Below are positions 30,001 through 36,000 of a stretch of DNA of 64,000 nucleotides, piece after piece; positions within the stretch are counted from its first letter, which is position 1, and each line of letters starts with the position of its first letter. Made by a program: the position numbers. The stretch is from a bacterium (lineage in GTDB: Bacteria > SAR324 > JACQKK01): positions 704,001 to 768,000 of the forward strand of contig OZ251219.1 in NCBI GenBank assembly GCA_965240465.1, read 5' to 3'.

Positions 30001-33000
30001 TCTCTTATTTTATGGGAGACAAAAGAAGATTTAAGACGAGCGGAAACTGATGGGTTCCCTACAGGAAACATCAAGGATGGACATAATTATAATTATGTTT
30101 TGGATGGTCAGCAAAGAGTTGCCAGCATCTATTTTGTTATAAAGGGTATTAAGCGTAAAGGTAAAGGAGATAATTATTCAACAATAGGGATTTTAGATAA
30201 AGGAAATGAGGAAAAAGACATAGTTATTGTATTAAACAAGGAGCAGATAAAAAGTGGTAATTTCACCAGCATACAAGACTTATTTTCAACCAATTATAAA
30301 GGTAACCTTACGGAGTATCGTGATAGACTTAGGGGTTATACTATACCTGCTGCGGATTTGATTGGTACAGAGATGGATGAAACAGTTCAAATGTTTATCA
30401 GAATAAATACCAGTGGAACAAAACTGGGTATATTTGATGTAATGTGTGCAAAGACTTATGAAAAAGGTAAATTTGATCTACGTAAAAAATGGAATGAACT
30501 AGAAAAAGAACTTAAAAACCGAGGACAAGTAATCTATGATTTATTTCCCGTTAATATCCTTAGAGCCGTATCTCTTACATTTCATAGAGAGTCAACCGAT
30601 AAGGCTATGTTAGATGCTAATAAAAAAGATTTTATTGATAATTGGGACAAAATAAAACAGGCTGTTTTTGACACAGTACAGCTTTTTAGGGGTTATGGTG
30701 TACTTTCAATTGATGATGTTCCTTATGGTCCGTTGCATGTTTTATTCATTTGTATGCATCTCCGAATGAAAATAGAGGAAAGTGAAGGTGTTTCAAAAAA
30801 TAAAAACCTCAACTTTTCAGAAATAAAAAACTAGAAGAATTTTTCTGGGGAGCTTCCTTTTCTGAAAGATACAATCAGGCAGTAAATTCTAAGACAAAAT
30901 CGGATAGAGAAGTAATTGATAATATTGTTAAGAACCCCGAGTACGATCTTAAAAAAGCCTTTCAAAGTGATTTTTTTGGTGATCTACTGAAGCCCGCAAA
31001 AATTGAAAGCTTTTCAAAAAATGGTGCTTTTGGAAAAGCTGTCTTGTGTATTCTTGCTGAACTAGTCCCACGTTCTCCTCGGGATGGTAGAAAGGTTGAA
31101 ACAGATAGAGGTAATGTAACAGATAAAAAGAGTCAGAATCTTCATCATTTCTTTCCTAAAAAATATCTTAAAGGAACAAGATTACCCCCGAAACTTGACG
31201 ATAGTATTGGAAACATCATATTTTTAGATAAACAATCAAATACTAAAATAGGAGCAAAAGGACCTAGGAAATATTTAGGTGATTATGTAAAGCATCTTGG
31301 AGAAGATAAATTACAGGAAAGACTAGACACACATTTAATAGATTTAATATATCTAGAAAAAGAAAAAAAAGATGGGTTACTGAATTATGAAGAAACTCAA
31401 GAAGGAATTAAAAAAGCCTATGAAAAATTCCTAAATAATCGTTGTAAGCGTATTTCAGATGAAATAAAAAAACTAATTCCTTCCTTGCTAGACGAAGAAA
31501 ACACCCAACCTACCACCTAATTAGCCAAGAACCTCTCGCAGTTTTCAGGCGGTTGATTTTCATTTTTCATGTACTGGAAGACGATATGGATTATCTAACT
31601 GCCAGATTGAAAAAAAAAGGGATCTTAAACTAAAAATTTGTTTAATTATGTTTTAGGTAGAATGCTCTATGTCTGAAGAAAAAGATATTAAATTAATTAT
31701 CACTATAAATAATACTGAGCCTATTAGCTTAAAAGATTTATCTGTCGGTTTAAATTCTTTTGCTACTCTGTATAAAGATTTCAATCAGGATAACAAGGAA
31801 TATCAACTGTTAGTACATGAGGTAAGGAAAGGCAGTATGGTAATGGAGTTAATTGCTTCATGCTTTCCTTTGATACCGTTAGCGAACGATTTAATCATAC
31901 AATTTGGCCATAACATGGAAGAACTTAAAATTTATTTTAAAAAAAATAAAACAGTAAGAAATCAACCTCCAAGCATTAATAAACTAATAACTGGTAATTT
32001 TAATAAATTTATTAATATAATTAAATATAAGGGAGATTCTGTTAAAATTGAAGCAAAAAATAATGATACGAACGAGAGTGTTGTTGTAAATATTGATTAT
32101 AAAGAAGCTAGAGATATGATACGCAATATATCTAATATGAAAGGTCCTGATAGTGATAAAAAGTATAAAAAACAGAAATTTCAATGGGAGCAGACAAATT
32201 TTAGTGAATCAAAAACAACAGGTAGTAAAGGGTCAATTGAGAAAATATGTGAAAAGCCATTACCAGTAATTTTTGATAATAATGAGCATAAAATACAAAT
32301 GACCACGAGCAATGATGAGGTAGATTGGCATAAAAAATTCTACATTGTAGATGTTATATTACAAATCAGATCGGGGGAGCCTACACAATACAAAATAATT
32401 AATAATTATCCAAAAGATAGCTTTCCTATTAAATTAATTTAATACATTATAGTCTCAGGAGTTAGCGTGCCAAGAATTTTTTACAGTTTTCAGGCGGTTG
32501 ATTTTCATTTTTCATGTACTGGAAGACGATTTCTCTTAGGGTAAAGGGCAGTTGATATTGGATGGGCGGATTTTGGAGCAGAGCTCGGGTAGCTATGGTG
32601 TTATGCCCTTGTCGGATGAAGTCAGTGCTCCAGACGAGGTATTTTTTACGCCAGCGGAGAGGGATTTGCGGGGTTTGCGGGGTTTGTGAGTTTTGGATGA
32701 GGAGGGATTTAATGTCGCTGGTTTTGGATTTAGGTTTTTGTTGAAAGGTGAAGCCTCCTGGGTAGAGTGGAGTGAGTCCTCGGGGGCTGTAGTTATTTTT
32801 CCATCGTACCATTCCAGTGAGTAGGATGGCGATTTGCTTACCTTGGGCGTGGAATTGTACTATTTGGTTGGGGTAGTAGAGCCAGCGATAGATGTGTTTT
32901 CTAAGGACAGGGGTGTGTTGCTTTGGGTGGGTTTTCCATTGCTGAGCGTAGAGGATTTTAGGCAGGGGCAGCAGACTAAGTAGTGGAGCAGGAGCAGCTA

Positions 33001-36000
33001 TTGAGTTCAGTTGGAGGTAGTTTTTCAGGGCTTGATGCTGGAGATTACCCAGACAACGAGTAAAAGGTCGGCGTTGGCGTTTTAGGAGTTTCGGGATGAC
33101 GAAGTGCCAATCGGTAGGAGTGTTTAGACTATGTTGAGCTGCTAGGAAGCGTTTTTTGGCATAGTTCGGCAGTTGGGTTTGCTGTGGAGTAAGGGAGGGC
33201 AATAGAATTGCGGCGGCGGATATTTTAGGCGGAGTGCTGGGCGGAGTGCTGGGAGGAGTGCGTTGATTGGAGGGATTGTCGGGGTGAGATTTTAGTTTAA
33301 TACGAACGAGCATTAGTCCTCGCCCGCTGGAGCCTACTTCCAGCAGTGGAATGGGCTGAGCGGGTATTTGCCAGCGTAGTTGTTGGTAAGGAAGGGGAGC
33401 ATAAGATAGACGATGAGAACCGCCACTGAGTACGAGGTCGGGATGAGCCTCGGGAGGGAGTTTCCATTTCCAAGCGACCAAGCTGGCAGCAGCAGGCAGG
33501 GGTTGATTTTCAGTAGCAGCGCGTTCCCAGCCGTAAAAGGGGTCGGCACCGCTGTGCATAAGAGCAATGACCAGATTCACCTTTTCCACTTTCCTTAGGT
33601 GAGGCACCCAACGACGCAATCCCGCCCGAATGCTACCCATCCGCCAAGGACCTCGCCACTCGGCTGCCGAAGCTCTAAGTCCGGGCTGTCCAAAACCAAG
33701 CACTCCCACCGAGATATTACCTCTTTTAACAATCACATAAGGAGTAAATACAGGTTCTCCTTGAGGGTTCAGGGCATTGGCTGCCAGCCAAGCAAAATCG
33801 GAGGCAGAATGTGATTTTTCCAGATGTTTGGCATTCAAGTCATAGTTGCCTATCGCCATGGCATCCCAGCCGATTTGGTTCATCAGCTGGATTGCGGGCA
33901 AGTTGCCATACTTATCTGCGGGTGGTTTTTCTCGCAGAGATTCTTGTGGTAGCACGCTGGAAGATGAACCAAATAAGCTGTCCCCAGCATCTAGTAAGAT
34001 CAAGCGATGATGGCTCTGGTTCTGTATCTTTGCCAGCAAGCTTTGTAAAGGTATCCAGCCTCGCTGATGAGAATAAGTATCGGTGAGCAAGCCATTATAA
34101 TCGGCAGTGACCGCCAGCCATAAGCTTTCCTCATCGGGAGCAGCAGTACTCACCAGTTCTTTCTCAGCCGAGCCAAGCTGAGTAAATTGAAGATACCAAA
34201 CCAAACAGAACACAATAGCTACTGAGGCCATCAATAATAACAGGACTTTCCAGCCTAGTGAACTGGATAGCTGGGTAGCAATTTTCCTTGCCTGCTGGTT
34301 AGCACCTCTCATGTTGAGGGGCATCTTTTTTTCAGGGTTTGAGCCAACTGAGCTAACTGAACCGATTGAGCCTCGGAGCTGCTTTGAGTGCTTATTTTTC
34401 CTAAGAGTCGGGTTGCCATAGCTGGTTTCATGTTTTGTAAAATCTGCCCTAGTGATTCCAAGCCCAGACTAAGGGATGGTGGTTTGAGACGCTTTTTTAG
34501 GCTGCGATTGACATCTTTTAGTACCAGAGGAGATACGTGTTCCAGCGAAGCCATTCTCAGGGCTAGCTCTTGTTGTAGGGAACTAGGCATGGCTTGCAGC
34601 ACCGCGGCTGCCTGAGAGCGAGGGCGTATTTGCATTAGAACTAAGGTAGCTGCTTGAGGGTGCTCGGTACTGAGTAGCTGGGCGGTTACTGCGGCTGATA
34701 AATGATTTAAGGTTACGATTCCTCCTAGTTGGCTGAGCCGTTGCTGATAAAAATCACTCAGTACTTGGTTCACTTCAGCCCAGCTGGCATCGGCAGCCTG
34801 CTTAATGGAGCCTGCTACCTGATCTACTTGCTGAGGTTGCATGCGTGCCAACACTTGCTTAGCCCTTCTGTGACCCAGCGATAACAACAAAATAGCAGAT
34901 TTTCGTACTACTGACATTATATCCCCAAGAAAACACCCCCATAACCCGCTTAAAGGCTTCTTATTAGGAGGTGCATGCAAAAATCGGGTCTTTTTATTTG
35001 CTCCTTAGTATCAAAAGGGGTTATCTTTGTGGTGGAGTGACTGGAGCATTACTCGGTATTACTCAGTGGTTGCTGGATACTCAAAGGATGGAGTTGTAAG
35101 GGAACGATGGCATTAAATCTAAAACTTCAGCTGCGACAAAATCAGCAGTTGATCATGACCCCTCAGTTACAACAAGCGATTCGCTTGTTGCAGTTATCGC
35201 GTTTGGAATTGGAGTCATTGGTAAATCAGGCTTTGGTGGAGAATCCGGTTTTGGAGGAGGATGAAAACAGAGGCGAAGATATGGAGTCATCAGGCTTAGA
35301 TCAAGGGGAGGAGGGGGGTGAAGCGGGTAGTAGCCTAGATAGTACTGCAGATGGTGTTGCAGATGGTACTGCGGATGGTGTTGAAGATGGTACTGCGGAT
35401 GGTGTTGAAGATGGTACTGCGGATGGTGTTGAAGATGGTACTGCGGAGAATAACGTGGATGATGGCGGGGATTTGATTAGGAACGAGCAGCATGAGGAGA
35501 CTGACCGTGACTGGCAAGAGTACATAGAGAGTGGTTCGGGAGTTATTCCAGAGCGTTCAGCAGGCAAGAGCGGTGAGGAGCCTCAGTTGGAAGCGATTTT
35601 ATCTAGGGATGAGTCTTTACGGGAGCATTTGCTGTGGCAGTTAAAGATGACTTCTTGGAGTGATGCCGAACGGAAGTTAGGTAGGCAGTTGGTAGGCAAT
35701 TTGGATGAGGATGGCTATTTGGTTGTGAGTTTGGGGGAGATATTGGAGACCAATATAGCCTTGGCTGGTGAGTTTGAGGAAGAACTTAAGCAAGAGCGTT
35801 TAACCTTATCTCAGGATGGTTTAGATTTGGAGTTATTGTGGGTGAAGCATGATTCCAAGCCCGCGGGCAAGGAAGGAAATCTTAGAATTAAGCCAGCGGT
35901 TGCTTTGGCTGCTGAAGCCGTTTTGCAGCAGGTGCATCAGTGGGATCCAGTTGGTTGCGGCACTCGTAATTTGCAGGAGTGCTTAGTGGCACAGCTAAAA

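What a model noticed while it worked through the whole genome (the two positions that open the first line are those of the whole stretch)
32462..34917. Flagellum lost in the genus, but a FliG without its torque domain and other switch-like genes persist
Both species of the genus lack FlhA, FliP, flagellin and the FliG C-terminal domain, all of which are present in relatives. Both still keep a 202-aa FliG made of the N and M domains only (738309-738917), encoded ahead of a conserved 620-aa protein. Also retained are a FliF-like protein (1088093-1089064), FliN-domain proteins (14821-15762, 676304-679261, 1091936-1092235, 1140443-1140724) and a MotA-like protein (1139123-1140238). Retention in both diverged species suggests a new, non-flagellar use, or else slow decay.
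Evidence so far: FlhA: 0 matches in G000 and G001, 19 of 19 other relatives positive. FliP, flagellin and FliG_C: none over the cut-off in G000 and G001, present in G008 and G009. Pfam hits of the retained genes. The FliG remnant is 43% identical to G001 and 28-29% to the canonical FliG of G008 and G009. The neighbour is 55% identical to G001. The FliF-like protein and FliN99 are 51-56% identical to G001 over partial lengths.
(Added by a program. Inside this text positions count along the whole contig: contig position 704,001 is position 1 of the stretch shown here. "Call 12" and the like, gene names such as g00115 and contig names such as C1 are that model's own, and its searches are not shown. 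The text may have been shortened before it was handed on; [...] marks where a part breaks off. The agent that wrote the report below was given it as the finding of a first reader that could run no searches.)

Follow-up and report, generated by a model that had tools for sequence, protein, structure and literature searches.

The report
Flagellar ring remnant without a flagellum
A small-genome bacterium that has lost its flagellum still keeps trimmed, intact versions of the ring proteins at the flagellum's base, plus the two enzymes that position them, so the ring probably now marks a place in the cell, perhaps to help decide where to divide.

Summary
Window 34309-34917(-) encodes a 202-aa FliG homologue with the N and M domains, helix MC and ARM_C. 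It ends just before the MFxF hinge, so the torque domain is missing. Its stop overlaps the start of a 620-aa exported UshA-like protein whose catalytic histidines are lost. The sister species G001 has the same pair in different flanks.

G000 and G001 lack FlhA, FlhB, FliP, FliH/I, rod/hook proteins, flagellin and chemotaxis genes; three flagellated relatives have them.

New here:
- FliM', FliN93 and FliF' correspond to the canonical flagellar genes of relatives. FliM' and FliN93 do so by synteny, FliF' by end-to-end alignment.
- FlhF and FlhG are also kept, at 74% and 70% identity against a genome median of 57%.
- The contact motifs survive: FliF tail, FliG EHPQ, FliM GGxG and its N-terminal peptide, FlhG DQAxxLR, and the FlhF N-terminus.
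- MinC, MinD and MinE are absent from all five genomes tested.

Best reading (about 0.5): a selected, non-rotating FliF-FliG-FliM-FliN scaffold placed and read by FlhF/FlhG. It may mark poles for division control, as in Campylobacter jejuni. Slow decay is unlikely.

Similar short FliG proteins occur as paralogues in Planctomycetaceae. The trees cannot tell whether FliG' descends from the resident fliG.

The parts
34309..34917 (-). fliG' : 202-aa FliG homologue. It has a shortened N domain, the M domain with EHPQ, helix MC and ARM_C. It lacks the MFxF hinge and the C-terminal torque domain.
   Evidence: Pfam FliG_N 69 bits and FliG_M 69.3 bits, no FliG_C. Alignment with 23 canonical FliG proteins. 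AlphaFold2 model, pLDDT 73.6. Foldseek finds Salmonella C-ring FliG (E 7.8e-6) and 5tdy_D FliG_N (63 columns, rmsd 1.2).
32462..34324 (-). Downstream gene of the same operon: a 620-aa UshA/5'-nucleotidase-like protein with an N-terminal membrane anchor (a signal-peptide-like N-terminus in G001). The catalytic histidines are replaced, so it is probably a pseudo-phosphatase.
   Evidence: NCBIfam UshA_like 68.8 bits and Pfam 5_nucleotid_C 23.4 bits. Motif changes: DxH to DYN, GNHE to GNYD, GHxH to GGSHR. Matched at E <= 1e-5 in 26 of 31 relatives, but not next to fliG in those examined.
34309..34324 (-). Gene junction. The TGA stop of fliG' overlaps the second ATG of the next gene (ATGA). The first ATG lies 16 nt inside fliG'.
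   Evidence: Sequence read. In G001 the two genes are 140 nt apart on the same strand.
35107..36849 (+). rpoN (sigma-54), divergent from fliG'. It is a neighbour in G000 only and is not shown to be linked.
   Evidence: Pfam Sigma54_AID, Sigma54_CBD and Sigma54_DBD; TIGR02395 386.8 bits. G001 has HIT and MsrB genes upstream instead. No sigma-54-type site upstream of fliG'.

Best explanation
The 202-aa protein is a FliG without its torque domain. It is the only FliG of a genus that has lost the flagellum. It keeps the parts that bind FliF (N domain) and FliM (M domain, EHPQ), and the part that stacks FliG subunits into a ring (ARM_C). It has lost the part that meets the stator.

It is retained under purifying selection together with:
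- a trimmed FliF (TM1, RBM3 core, TM2, FliG-binding tail);
- a diverged FliM (N-terminal LSxxELxxLL peptide, GGxG);
- two FliN-only proteins;
- well-conserved FlhF and FlhG.

Inferred mechanism: FlhF recruits FliG' and FliF' to a membrane site, most likely a pole. FliM' and FliN' add on. The MinD-like ATPase FlhG docks on the FliM' N-terminus. The result would be a non-rotating, non-secreting MS/C-ring-like scaffold that acts as a spatial marker.

The most likely use, by analogy with Campylobacter jejuni and because the family has no MinCDE, is to keep division away from the poles. I put that specific use at about 0.25.

Shown: the gene content, the orthology of FliM', FliN93 and FliF', the motifs, and the signs of constraint. 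Inferred: assembly, location and the link to division.
For: Architecture of FliG': both species share a roughly 40-aa deletion at the end of the N domain and end just before MFxF. E85, H86, P87, Q88 and R121 are invariant across 25 sequences. The fold is confirmed.

Orthology of the partners:
- FliM' follows an Exo_endo_phos gene, as canonical FliM does in G008.
- FliN93 precedes the TolQ-like trio. In G008 the order is fliL-fliN-fliO-fliP-x-trio.
- FliF' aligns to the last ~190 aa of canonical FliF, right to the end, in 28 of 29 other relatives searched.

FlhF and FlhG:
- FlhF scores TIGR03499 205 bits in G000 and 217.9 in G001, against a cut-off of 174.
- FlhG lies next to FlhF in both species.
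- They are 74% and 70% identical between the species. The median is 57% over 51 ORF pairs.

Motifs kept: FlhG DQATSLRR and GKGGVGKS; FliM' LLSDxELxxLL and LLGGxG; the FlhF N-terminal ~52 aa.

Constraint: pN/pS is 0.40-0.54 with saturated pS. Conservation by domain: FliG' M 59%, FliF' tail 60% and RBM3 core 55%, against 17-30% in linkers.

Losses: FHIPEP, FliP, Flagellin_N, Flg_bb_rod, CheW and MCPsignal are each present in 3 of 5 genomes and never in G000 or G001. BLASTP with G008 queries finds no FliH, FliL, FliO, FliP, FlhA or FlhB in G000.

No Min system: MinE 0 of 5, MinC 0 of 5 over the cut-off, MinD equivalog 0 of 5 over the cut-off.

Complex prediction, FliG' 1-72 with FliF' 283-330: weak support. 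The score is 0.53 and the best of 3 controls is 0.00. That mark was reached by 116 of 157 solved complexes and 2 of 215 mismatched pairs. At 0.60 or under, only 18 of the 157 solved complexes passed, as did both mismatches. The runs agree in at least 86% of contacts and the partner's pLDDT is at least 58. Like complexes are solved (5TDY, 5WUJ), so the pass may be from memory.

Literature, passages read:
- In C. jejuni, which has no Min system, flhF, flhG, fliF, fliM and fliN mutants make minicells (PMC3228812).
- FlhG binds the FliM N-terminus and its DQAxxLR helix activates FlhF (PMC12826062).
- The FlhF N-terminal domain binds FliG, which then captures the FliF C-tail (PMC11236974).
Against: - FliG' (43%) and FliF' (39%) are in the lowest quarter of G000-G001 identities. 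They are only 25-28% identical to the canonical proteins of G008, although canonical FliG is nearly invariant within the family (tip branches 0.02-0.1 against 0.86-1.25 for the remnants).
- The fifth residue of EHPQR is Ala in both species.
- FliF' lacks RBM1, most of RBM2 and the beta-collar, so ring formation is uncertain.
- In C. jejuni a fliG mutant made few or no minicells. In Shewanella, FlhF bound FliG-NM only sub-stoichiometrically.
- Other FlhA-less lineages of the same phylum (G039, G040, G051, G052) have no FliG_M (0 of 4). The three of them tested for FlhF (G040, G051, G052) have none over the cut-off. The module is therefore dispensable in kin. Their Min status was not tested.
- pS is saturated, so the true dN/dS is unknown.
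- The complex prediction gave only weak support.
- There are no expression or localisation data.
- The trees do not settle whether FliG' descends from the resident fliG.
Confidence: 0.5

Rival explanations
1. Slow decay. The remnants are non-functional leftovers that have not yet been deleted from a shrinking genome.
For: They are truncated and evolve fast: FliG' 43%, FliF' 39% and FliM' 49% identity against a median of 57%, with long branches. In G000 the FliM domain is no longer detected by Pfam. Other FlhA-less lineages of the phylum have lost FliG entirely.
Against: - Six such genes are intact in both species even though synonymous sites are saturated.
- The two species share identical truncation points.
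- Conservation peaks in the contact regions.
- The motifs are kept.
- FlhF and FlhG are above the median in conservation.
- In a 1.6-Mb genome, useless DNA is usually removed. The neighbouring fliL, fliO and fliP genes were cleanly deleted while fliN stayed.
Confidence: 0.12
2. Different origin. FliG' is not the truncated resident fliG. Instead it belongs to a separate 'short FliG' family (N+M+ARM_C) like the one that exists as a paralogue in Planctomycetaceae, either acquired by transfer or ancient.
For: Proteins of about 200-230 aa with the same domain boundaries match end to end. One lies in a Planctomycetaceae MAG in a non-flagellar context (L073). In the broad tree the remnant pair joins the planctomycete group, but weakly (support 71). 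Holding it with the short clade is not rejected (AU p 0.27). The nearest ESM Atlas clusters are short FliG_N+FliG_M proteins.
Against: - No short FliG was found in the 29 other relatives searched. FliG' is the only FliG in G000 and G001.
- The family-only tree puts it in the canonical group and outside the class-2 paralogues.
- Holding it with the family's FliG proteins is not rejected either (AU p 0.073 and 0.15).
- Its partners FliM', FliN93 and FliF' are inherited vertically.
- Its identity to the short family (24-27% for G001 and G000 against P0123) is no higher than to canonical FliG (24-29%).
Confidence: 0.15
3. New partnership. FliG' works with the co-transcribed UshA-like protein in an envelope-related function, independent of FliF', FliM' and FliN'.
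For: The gene pair is conserved in both species although the flanks differ. In G000 the stop and start overlap (ATGA), which suggests translational coupling. The pair is specific to the genus: in relatives the UshA-like gene sits elsewhere.
Against: - The UshA-like protein is exported or membrane-anchored, and its short cytoplasmic N-terminus is not conserved (G001 has a signal-peptide-like start). It therefore has no conserved surface for a cytoplasmic FliG'.
- G001 has a 140-nt gap between the genes.
- The UshA-like family predates the loss of the flagellum and is already catalytically degenerate in flagellated relatives.
- The conserved surfaces of FliG' are those for FliF and FliM.
Confidence: 0.08
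4. Regulatory device. The remnant ring with FlhG serves as an assembly-state sensor that controls transcription, as FlhG/FleN does with sigma-54 activators in polar flagellates, rather than as a spatial marker.
For: rpoN lies divergent from fliG' in G000. The genome has two ORFs with the GAFTGA motif of sigma-54 activators. The review passages describe FlhG relaying the state of the C-ring to FlrA/FleQ.
Against: The adjacency to rpoN is not shared by G001. No sigma-54-type promoter was found upstream of any remnant gene. The flagellar regulon it would control is gone.
Confidence: 0.08

Closest known systems
[quoted passage not shown]
   Same: There is no Min system. FlhF, FlhG, FliF, FliM and FliN are the components that matter, and the export apparatus is not needed for the effect. 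The same set is what G000 and G001 keep.
   Different: C. jejuni has a complete working flagellum. Here the rest of the flagellum is gone and the ring proteins are trimmed. In C. jejuni fliG was not needed for the effect. No phenotype is known here.
HubP-FlhF-FliG-FliF recruitment cascade of Shewanella putrefaciens (PMC11236974, passages read; review PMC12826062)
   Same: The FlhF N-terminal domain, the FliG M region, the FliF C-tail, the FlhG DQAxxLR helix and the FliM N-terminal peptide are all kept.
   Different: That cascade starts the building of a flagellum. Here nothing remains to be built on it. FlhF bound FliG-MC well but FliG-NM poorly. A HubP/FimV-type landmark was not looked for.
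Flagellar basal bodies kept by insect endosymbionts such as Buchnera
   Same: A reduced genome keeps part of the flagellar gene set after motility is lost.
   Different: As I recall, those symbionts keep the export apparatus, rod and hook, and lose the filament and motor. Here it is the reverse. The export gate, ATPase, rod and hook are gone, and the MS/C-ring proteins and their positioning enzymes stay.
Short FliG paralogues of Planctomycetaceae (proteins P0123, P0059, P0069, P0120, P0124, P0109; loci L073, L074)
   Same: The architecture is the same: a shortened N domain, an M domain with EHPQ, ARM_C, and an end at or just after MFxF. They sit alone in non-flagellar surroundings.
   Different: There they exist beside a canonical FliG (G073 has open frames of 216 aa and 349 aa) and branch with the planctomycete canonical FliG (support 91). 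Here the short form is the only FliG. Searches found no paper on them.
UshA / 5'-nucleotidase metallophosphatases (PDB 1USH, 3GVE)
   Same: The neighbour has the two-domain fold family and keeps the GD and H-x-G motifs.
   Different: The catalytic His of DxH and of GNHE, and the first His of GHxH, are replaced. It is probably not an active phosphatase.

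Membership tests
FliG, flagellar rotor/switch protein (TIGR00207; Pfam FliG_N + FliG_M + FliG_C) | N-terminal domain that binds the FliF C-tail | tested here: met
   FliG_N 69 bits, but only profile positions 2-64 of 104. Matches 5tdy_D FliG_N at rmsd 1.2 over 63 columns. About 40 aa at the end of the domain are deleted. The predicted contact with the FliF' tail has only weak support (0.53 against controls of 0.00).
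FliG, flagellar rotor/switch protein (TIGR00207; Pfam FliG_N + FliG_M + FliG_C) | Middle domain with the EHPQR motif that binds FliM | tested here: met
   FliG_M 69.3 bits. E85, H86, P87, Q88 and R121 are invariant in 25 sequences. The fifth motif residue is Ala instead of Thr or Arg.
FliG, flagellar rotor/switch protein (TIGR00207; Pfam FliG_N + FliG_M + FliG_C) | C-terminal domain with the charged torque helix that meets MotA | tested here: not met
   No FliG_C hit in the protein or anywhere in G000. The alignment ends before MFxF.
FliG, flagellar rotor/switch protein (TIGR00207; Pfam FliG_N + FliG_M + FliG_C) | Reaches the curated equivalog score | tested here: not met
   TIGR00207 66.7 bits against a cut-off of 226.7.
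FliG, flagellar rotor/switch protein (TIGR00207; Pfam FliG_N + FliG_M + FliG_C) | Works in a genome that encodes a flagellum (export gate, rod, hook, filament) | tested here: not met
   FHIPEP, FliP, Flg_bb_rod and Flagellin_N are absent from G000 and G001 and present in 3 of 3 relatives tested.
Short FliG (N+M+ARM_C) proteins as in Planctomycetaceae | Same domain boundaries | tested here: met
   Alignment A7. Matches run end to end in a single stretch.
Short FliG (N+M+ARM_C) proteins as in Planctomycetaceae | Common descent with that clade | tested here: inconclusive
   The weak join has support 71. AU p is 0.27 when held with the short clade, 0.15 with the family's class 1+2 and 0.073 with class 1. 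None is rejected.
[quoted passage not shown] | No MinCDE system | tested here: met
   MinE 0 of 5, MinC 0 of 5 over the cut-off, MinD equivalog 0 of 5 over the cut-off.
[quoted passage not shown] | FlhF and FlhG present with their functional motifs | tested here: met
   FlhF is over the TIGR03499 cut-off in G000 and G001. FlhG has DQAxxLR and the deviant Walker A.
[quoted passage not shown] | FliF, FliM and FliN present | tested here: met
   Trimmed or diverged forms are present in both species.
[quoted passage not shown] | Polar division (minicells) when the components are removed | not testable with these tools
   This needs genetics or microscopy of the organism.
UshA / 5'-nucleotidase metallophosphatase (the neighbouring gene) | Metallophosphatase catalytic motifs DxH, GD, GNH[ED], GHxH | tested here: not met
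   The motifs read DYN, GD, GNYD and GGSHR. There is no Pfam Metallophos hit in G000, G001 or the f1 relatives, whereas two f2 relatives hit at 37 bits.
UshA / 5'-nucleotidase metallophosphatase (the neighbouring gene) | 5'-nucleotidase C-terminal domain | tested here: inconclusive
   23.4 bits against a cut-off of 23.6 in G000. 27.5 bits in G001.

The most novel reading that the evidence does not exclude
After losing the flagellum, this genus kept a minimal MS/C-ring with no stator and no export apparatus (FliF', FliG-NM, FliM', FliN'). FlhF places it and FlhG reads it, and it serves as a dedicated organiser of cell poles and the division site in place of the missing Min system. That would be a natural separation of the structural, positional role of the flagellar base from its motor and secretion roles. 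The similar short FliG proteins of Planctomycetaceae would then be a second, independent case of FliG used as a non-rotating scaffold.
Probability: 0.25. Interest if true: 0.85.

Novelty: new variant of a known kind. Interest (0 to 1): 0.72.

Why it matters
Partial retention of flagellar genes after loss of motility is known. As far as I recall, the retained part is usually the secretion core. Here the secretion core, rod, hook, filament, stator contact and chemotaxis are gone. What survives is the FliF-FliG-FliM-FliN ring set and its positioning enzymes FlhF and FlhG, with the contact motifs intact.

This is the set proposed in Campylobacter to protect poles from division in a cell without Min. 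If the reading is right, evolution has done the dissection experiment: it shows which parts of the flagellar base carry a function apart from motility. It also supplies a small, simplified set of proteins for testing how FlhF/FlhG and the C-ring mark a site in the cell.

The work also draws attention to short, torque-less FliG proteins in other phyla, on which searches found no paper.

Tried and rejected
- The search for related loci in genome contigs with FliG' alone found no relative.
- The search for homologous proteins with FliG' returned 20 proteins at E <= 0.001: canonical FliG proteins at 23-49% identity over varying coverage, plus one copy that is 99% identical. With the neighbour it found a 62%-identical protein on a 2.7-kb contig, but no names. 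The tools did not name the organism's lineage.
- Sigma-54 control: no -24/-12-type site upstream of any remnant gene (72 sites genome-wide at 9 or more of 10 consensus letters), and none by eye upstream of fliG'.
- Expression: no RNA holder was listed for window 32400-35100. Read laying was not used, because contigs cannot show expression.
- Independent replicates: of the 8 genomes among 64 without FHIPEP, G039, G040, G051 and G052 have no FliG_M. G053 has a full-length FliG with FliG_C at 144 bits, so it probably misses FlhA only because it is incomplete. G056 (310 contigs) was not followed up. The f3 genomes G051 and G052 keep four FliMN_C proteins each. However, their 87-88-aa FliN-only proteins are only 27% identical to FliN93 and are not syntenic, so they are not counted as replicates.
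- The phylum-level search covered 41 genomes (G000 plus 40 others at 90% completeness or more), all already in the class sample, and added nothing.
- dN/dS proper could not be estimated because pS is saturated.
- The careful tree did not finish, so the quick tree was used.
- The idea that FliG' is a class-2 or class-3 FliG paralogue of the family was rejected. Class 2 is a separate clade (support 98) and three of the four class-3 rows are separated by a branch with support 100; the fourth (L028) fell inside the class-2 clade.
- The idea that the FliMN_C proteins belong to a type III injectisome was rejected, because there is no FHIPEP/SctV.

Full report
**1. What is at the locus**

Window 34309-34917(-) holds a 202-aa ORF. 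It hits Pfam FliG_N (69 bits, residues 1-63 on profile positions 2-64 of 104) and FliG_M (69.3 bits, residues 79-145). It has no FliG_C hit. The NCBIfam FliG equivalog scores 66.7 bits against a cut-off of 226.7, matching model positions 112-229 of 338.

Its TGA stop overlaps the second ATG of the next ORF (ATGA). The first ATG of that ORF lies 16 nt inside fliG'.

The next ORF is 32462-34324(-), 620 aa. It has an N-terminal hydrophobic anchor and is UshA/5'-nucleotidase-like (UshA_like 68.8 bits; 5_nucleotid_C 23.4 against 23.6). rpoN lies divergent upstream.

The window belongs to G000, a 1.599-Mb genome on a single contig. Its sister species G001 is 1.72 Mb, also on one contig. Relatives are 2.3-5.3 Mb.

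**2. Anatomy of FliG'**

I aligned FliG' with the G001 protein and 23 canonical FliG proteins. Both species share a deletion of about 40 residues at the end of the N domain and helix NM. They keep E85, H86, P87, Q88 and R121, which are invariant in all 25 rows. They also keep helix MC and the ARM_C repeat. Both end just before the MFxF hinge. The six-helix C-terminal domain with the torque helix is absent.

An AlphaFold2 model (pLDDT 73.6, all helical) finds the following by Foldseek:
- Salmonella C-ring FliG (9n49_G, E 7.8e-6);
- FliG-MC (3ajc, 112 columns, rmsd 4.3);
- FliG_N from the FliF_C:FliG_N complex (5tdy_D, 63 columns, rmsd 1.2).

FliG' therefore keeps the parts known to bind FliF and FliM and to stack with neighbouring FliG subunits, and lacks the part that meets the stator. 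The assignment of functions to these parts comes from established knowledge of FliG.

**3. The flagellum is gone**

Each family below was searched in five genomes: G000, G001, G008, G009 and G004. G000 and G001 have no match over the cut-off, and all three relatives do:
- FHIPEP/FlhA;
- FliG_C (G001 has only a 16.7-bit match);
- FliP (G000 has a 13.1-bit match containing stops);
- Flagellin_N (7-9 matches per relative);
- Flg_bb_rod;
- CheW;
- MCPsignal.

BLASTP with G008 proteins against all G000 ORFs found no FliH, FliL, FliO or FliP and no FlhA or FlhB. The FliI query hit only two ORFs 4 kb apart at 31-35% identity, which I take to be F1-ATPase subunits (not tested), and a third at 28%.

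Both genomes are single contigs, so these absences are unlikely to be assembly gaps. Across the class, 56 of 64 genomes at 85% completeness or more have FHIPEP.

**4. What is kept, and how it relates to the flagellar genes of relatives**

*FliM'.* This is G000 contig 14788-15762, 324 aa. The G001 copy is 302 aa and scores Pfam FliM 31.8 bits, over the cut-off. It follows an Exo_endo_phos gene, exactly as canonical FliM does in G008.

*FliN93.* This is contig 1140443-1140724. It is followed by a TolQ/ExbB-like 373-aa gene and two unknown genes of 202 and 212 aa. In G008 the order is fliL-fliN-fliO-fliP-(126 aa)-TolQ-like 377-200-224. So fliL, fliO and fliP were deleted and fliN was kept.

*FliF'.* This is contig 1088072-1089064, 330 aa (400 aa in G001). 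It lies between rplM/rpsI and an EamA gene in both species. It aligns to the last ~190 residues of canonical FliF (537-594 aa), right to the C-terminus; 30 of the 31 genomes searched had a match, G000 and G001 included. It keeps TM1, the RBM3 core, TM2 and the cytoplasmic tail. It lacks RBM1, most of RBM2 and the beta-collar.

*Also kept:*
- a second FliN-only protein (FliN99), syntenic in both species beside a SPOR gene;
- a 1001-aa protein with a C-terminal FliMN_C domain;
- a 195-aa MgtE_N/FlbB-like protein.

*FliG paralogues.* Relatives have two further classes of FliG paralogue, of 347-430 aa and about 600-670 aa. In a tree of the family's FliG proteins, the G000+G001 pair (support 95) comes off the canonical group on a very long branch and lies outside the class-2 clade (support 98) (quick tree, because the careful search did not finish).

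**5. FlhF and FlhG are kept too**

In G008 the order is flhB-x-flhA-flhF-flhG. G000 has lpxH-like-flhF-flhG without flhB or flhA, and so does G001.

FlhF passes the TIGR03499 cut-off of 174 bits in both species (205 and 217.9 bits). FlhG carries the N-terminal DQATSLRR helix, the GKGGVGKS Walker A and a C-terminal amphipathic end. The first ~52 residues of FlhF are highly conserved among G000, G001, G008 and G053. In Shewanella that region binds FliG (PMC11236974, passages).

FlhF is 74% and FlhG 70% identical between the two species.

**6. Is it selection or decay?**

I took ORFs from about 80 kb of G001 and compared them with G000. There were 70 queries; 56 had hits and 51 of those had coverage over 0.6. 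Several rows are RCC1 paralogues that hit a single G000 ORF. The median identity is 57.4%, with quartiles at 44.8% and 68.2%.

Against that baseline:

| Protein | G000-G001 identity |
|---|---|
| FliG' | 43% |
| FliF' | 39% |
| FliM' | 49% |
| FliN93 | 50% |
| FliN99 | 56% |
| UshA-like neighbour | 53% |
| TolQ-like protein | 69% |

The ring proteins therefore evolve faster than the median, but within the range of ordinary genes (SPOR 43%, EamA 47%).

Nei-Gojobori counts give pS of 0.69-0.79, which is saturated, and pN of 0.30-0.39, so pN/pS is 0.40-0.54. Eight control genes give 0.23-0.48.

Conservation is uneven in the way function predicts:
- FliG': M 59%, N 45%, helix MC 30%, ARM_C 25%.
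- FliF': C-tail 60%, RBM3 core 55%, linkers 17-23%.

FliM' keeps the N-terminal LLSDxELxxLL peptide and LLGGxG, although the chemotaxis genes are gone. According to the review passages, FlhG binds the FliM N-terminus.

Intact frames, shared truncation points and conserved contact motifs, across a divergence at which neutral sites are randomised, argue strongly against neutral decay.

**7. Predicted contact**

I submitted FliG' residues 1-72 with FliF' residues 283-330, each with its own alignment. The verdict was weak support:
- The score was 0.53 and the best of 3 controls was 0.00.
- The mark was reached by 116 of 157 solved complexes and 2 of 215 mismatched pairs.
- At 0.60 or under, only 18 of the 157 solved complexes passed, as did both mismatches.
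- The runs agree in at least 86% of contacts, and the partner's pLDDT is at least 58.

Complexes of this kind are solved (5TDY, 5WUJ), so the pass may reflect likeness rather than binding.

**8. A possible use**

MinE matches 0 of 5 genomes. MinC is over the cut-off in 0 of 5, and the MinD equivalog in 0 of 5. The best MinD-like gene in each genome is the one next to flhF. An ORF with the tubulin signature, a likely FtsZ, is present (regex only).

C. jejuni also has no Min system. There, flhF, flhG, fliF, fliM and fliN mutants make minicells, while fliG mutants and single export-gate mutants do so little or not at all. [quoted passage not shown]

The set kept in G000 and G001 matches that list, with FliG' as the physical adaptor between FliF and FliM. 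I therefore propose a non-rotating, FlhF-placed, FlhG-read scaffold. Division-site control is its most likely task. This step is inference.

**9. The neighbour**

The UshA-like protein has matches in 26 of 31 genomes searched, at 30-36% identity outside the genus. In the five relatives whose loci were examined it is not next to fliG.

Its catalytic motifs are degenerate in the genus (DYN, GNYD, GGSHR). They are already degenerate in flagellated f1 relatives (GDLKG; GNYDL, GNVDL or GNRDL). They are intact in f2 (SDLHG, GNHD, GHAH).

G001's copy starts with a signal-peptide-like segment, so no cytoplasmic part is conserved. The gene pair is specific to the genus and may be co-translated in G000, but a direct FliG'-UshA-like partnership is not supported.

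**10. Short FliG proteins elsewhere**

A full HMMER search of 1.84 billion representatives gave 1416 hits at E of 0.001 or less. Besides G001's protein, there are proteins of about 190-230 aa that match end to end. They share the same boundaries as FliG'.

One of them lies in a Planctomycetaceae MAG among unrelated genes (L073). A second such genome has both a short and a canonical-length FliG.

In a broad tree the planctomycete short clade is sister to planctomycete canonical FliG (support 91). The G000/G001 pair joins that group only weakly (support 71). AU tests reject none of three placements:
- with the family's canonical FliG, p 0.073;
- with class 1 plus class 2, p 0.15;
- with the short clade, p 0.27.

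Vertical descent is the simpler reading. FliG' is the only FliG in the genus, no short FliG was found in the 29 other relatives searched, and its partners are inherited vertically. Even so, the origin is not settled.

The nearest ESM Atlas clusters are short FliG_N+FliG_M proteins with 59-101 members, commonest in Planctomycetota. Few members have a known phylum, and some may be fragments.

**11. Limits**

- There are no expression data.
- The tools did not name the organism.
- Other FlhA-less lineages in the phylum have lost FliG and FlhF, so the module is not indispensable in kin.
- Literature searches found no paper on retention of the C-ring alone or on short FliG proteins. They cover only the held library.

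Noticed in passing
window 29809-32442: A low-GC island (GC 0.32 in 30001-32000, against about 0.46 around it). It holds a GmrSD-like restriction gene split into an N-terminal ORF (GmrSD_N 95.9 bits, 341 aa) and a separate weak C-terminal ORF (GmrSD_C 18.1 bits, 158 aa), plus a 257-aa ORF with no family hit. It sits directly at the 3' end of the UshA-like gene.
   Followed up: partly
window 31523-31633 (contig 735523-735633, minus strand): A 37-codon fragment, 59% identical to the C-terminus (residues 583-619) of the UshA-like protein, with two stop codons. It lies inside the low-GC island. It looks like a duplicated gene end left by the insertion.
   Followed up: no
window 39094-40658: A type II restriction-modification pair in a second low-GC stretch (0.38-0.39): an EcoO109I-family endonuclease (276 bits) and an N6_N4 DNA methylase (164 bits).
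   Followed up: partly
window 35337-35447: rpoN carries a 24-nt tandem repeat of 4.6 copies (96% matches). It encodes an acidic DGTADGVE repeat between the activator-interacting and core-binding regions.
   Followed up: no
window 29191-29246: A 12-nt tandem repeat of 4.7 copies in the spacer between clpX and a YqeY-like gene.
   Followed up: no
G000 contig 1137744-1140244 (loci L034, L061, L062): A conserved three-gene set: a TolQ/ExbB-like protein of 373 aa plus two proteins of 202 and 212 aa with no family hit. It is 57-69% identical between G000 and G001 and 31-42% identical to G008. In flagellated relatives it lies just downstream of fliP. Its function is unknown, and it outlived the flagellar genes around it.
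   Followed up: partly
relatives G002-G030 (e.g. L014-L031, L064): Flagellated relatives carry extra switch-like paralogues. These are a second FliG class (347-430 aa) next to a MotA_ExbB-like gene, a third class of about 600-670 aa with FliG_M and FliG_C, and a divergent FliM-like protein (325-341 aa) beside a 440-592-aa protein ending in FliMN_C. None of these is kept in G000 or G001.
   Followed up: partly
G051 and G052 (loci L079-L086): Two single-contig, low-GC (0.32-0.35) genomes of 2.4 and 1.6 Mb from another family of the same class. They lack FHIPEP, FliG_M and FlhF but keep four FliMN_C proteins each, including FliN-only proteins of 87-88 aa.
   Followed up: partly
G001 loci L062, L066, L067: G001 has many RCC1-repeat proteins (at least seven ORFs in about 35 kb sampled), and all of them hit a single G000 ORF (contig 1388482-1389807). 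This is an expansion specific to G001.
   Followed up: no
Planctomycetaceae short FliG proteins P0059, P0120, P0123, P0124: Four of the six short planctomycete FliG proteins end in the same C-terminal 'AC' after a variable tail. Its meaning is unknown.
   Followed up: no
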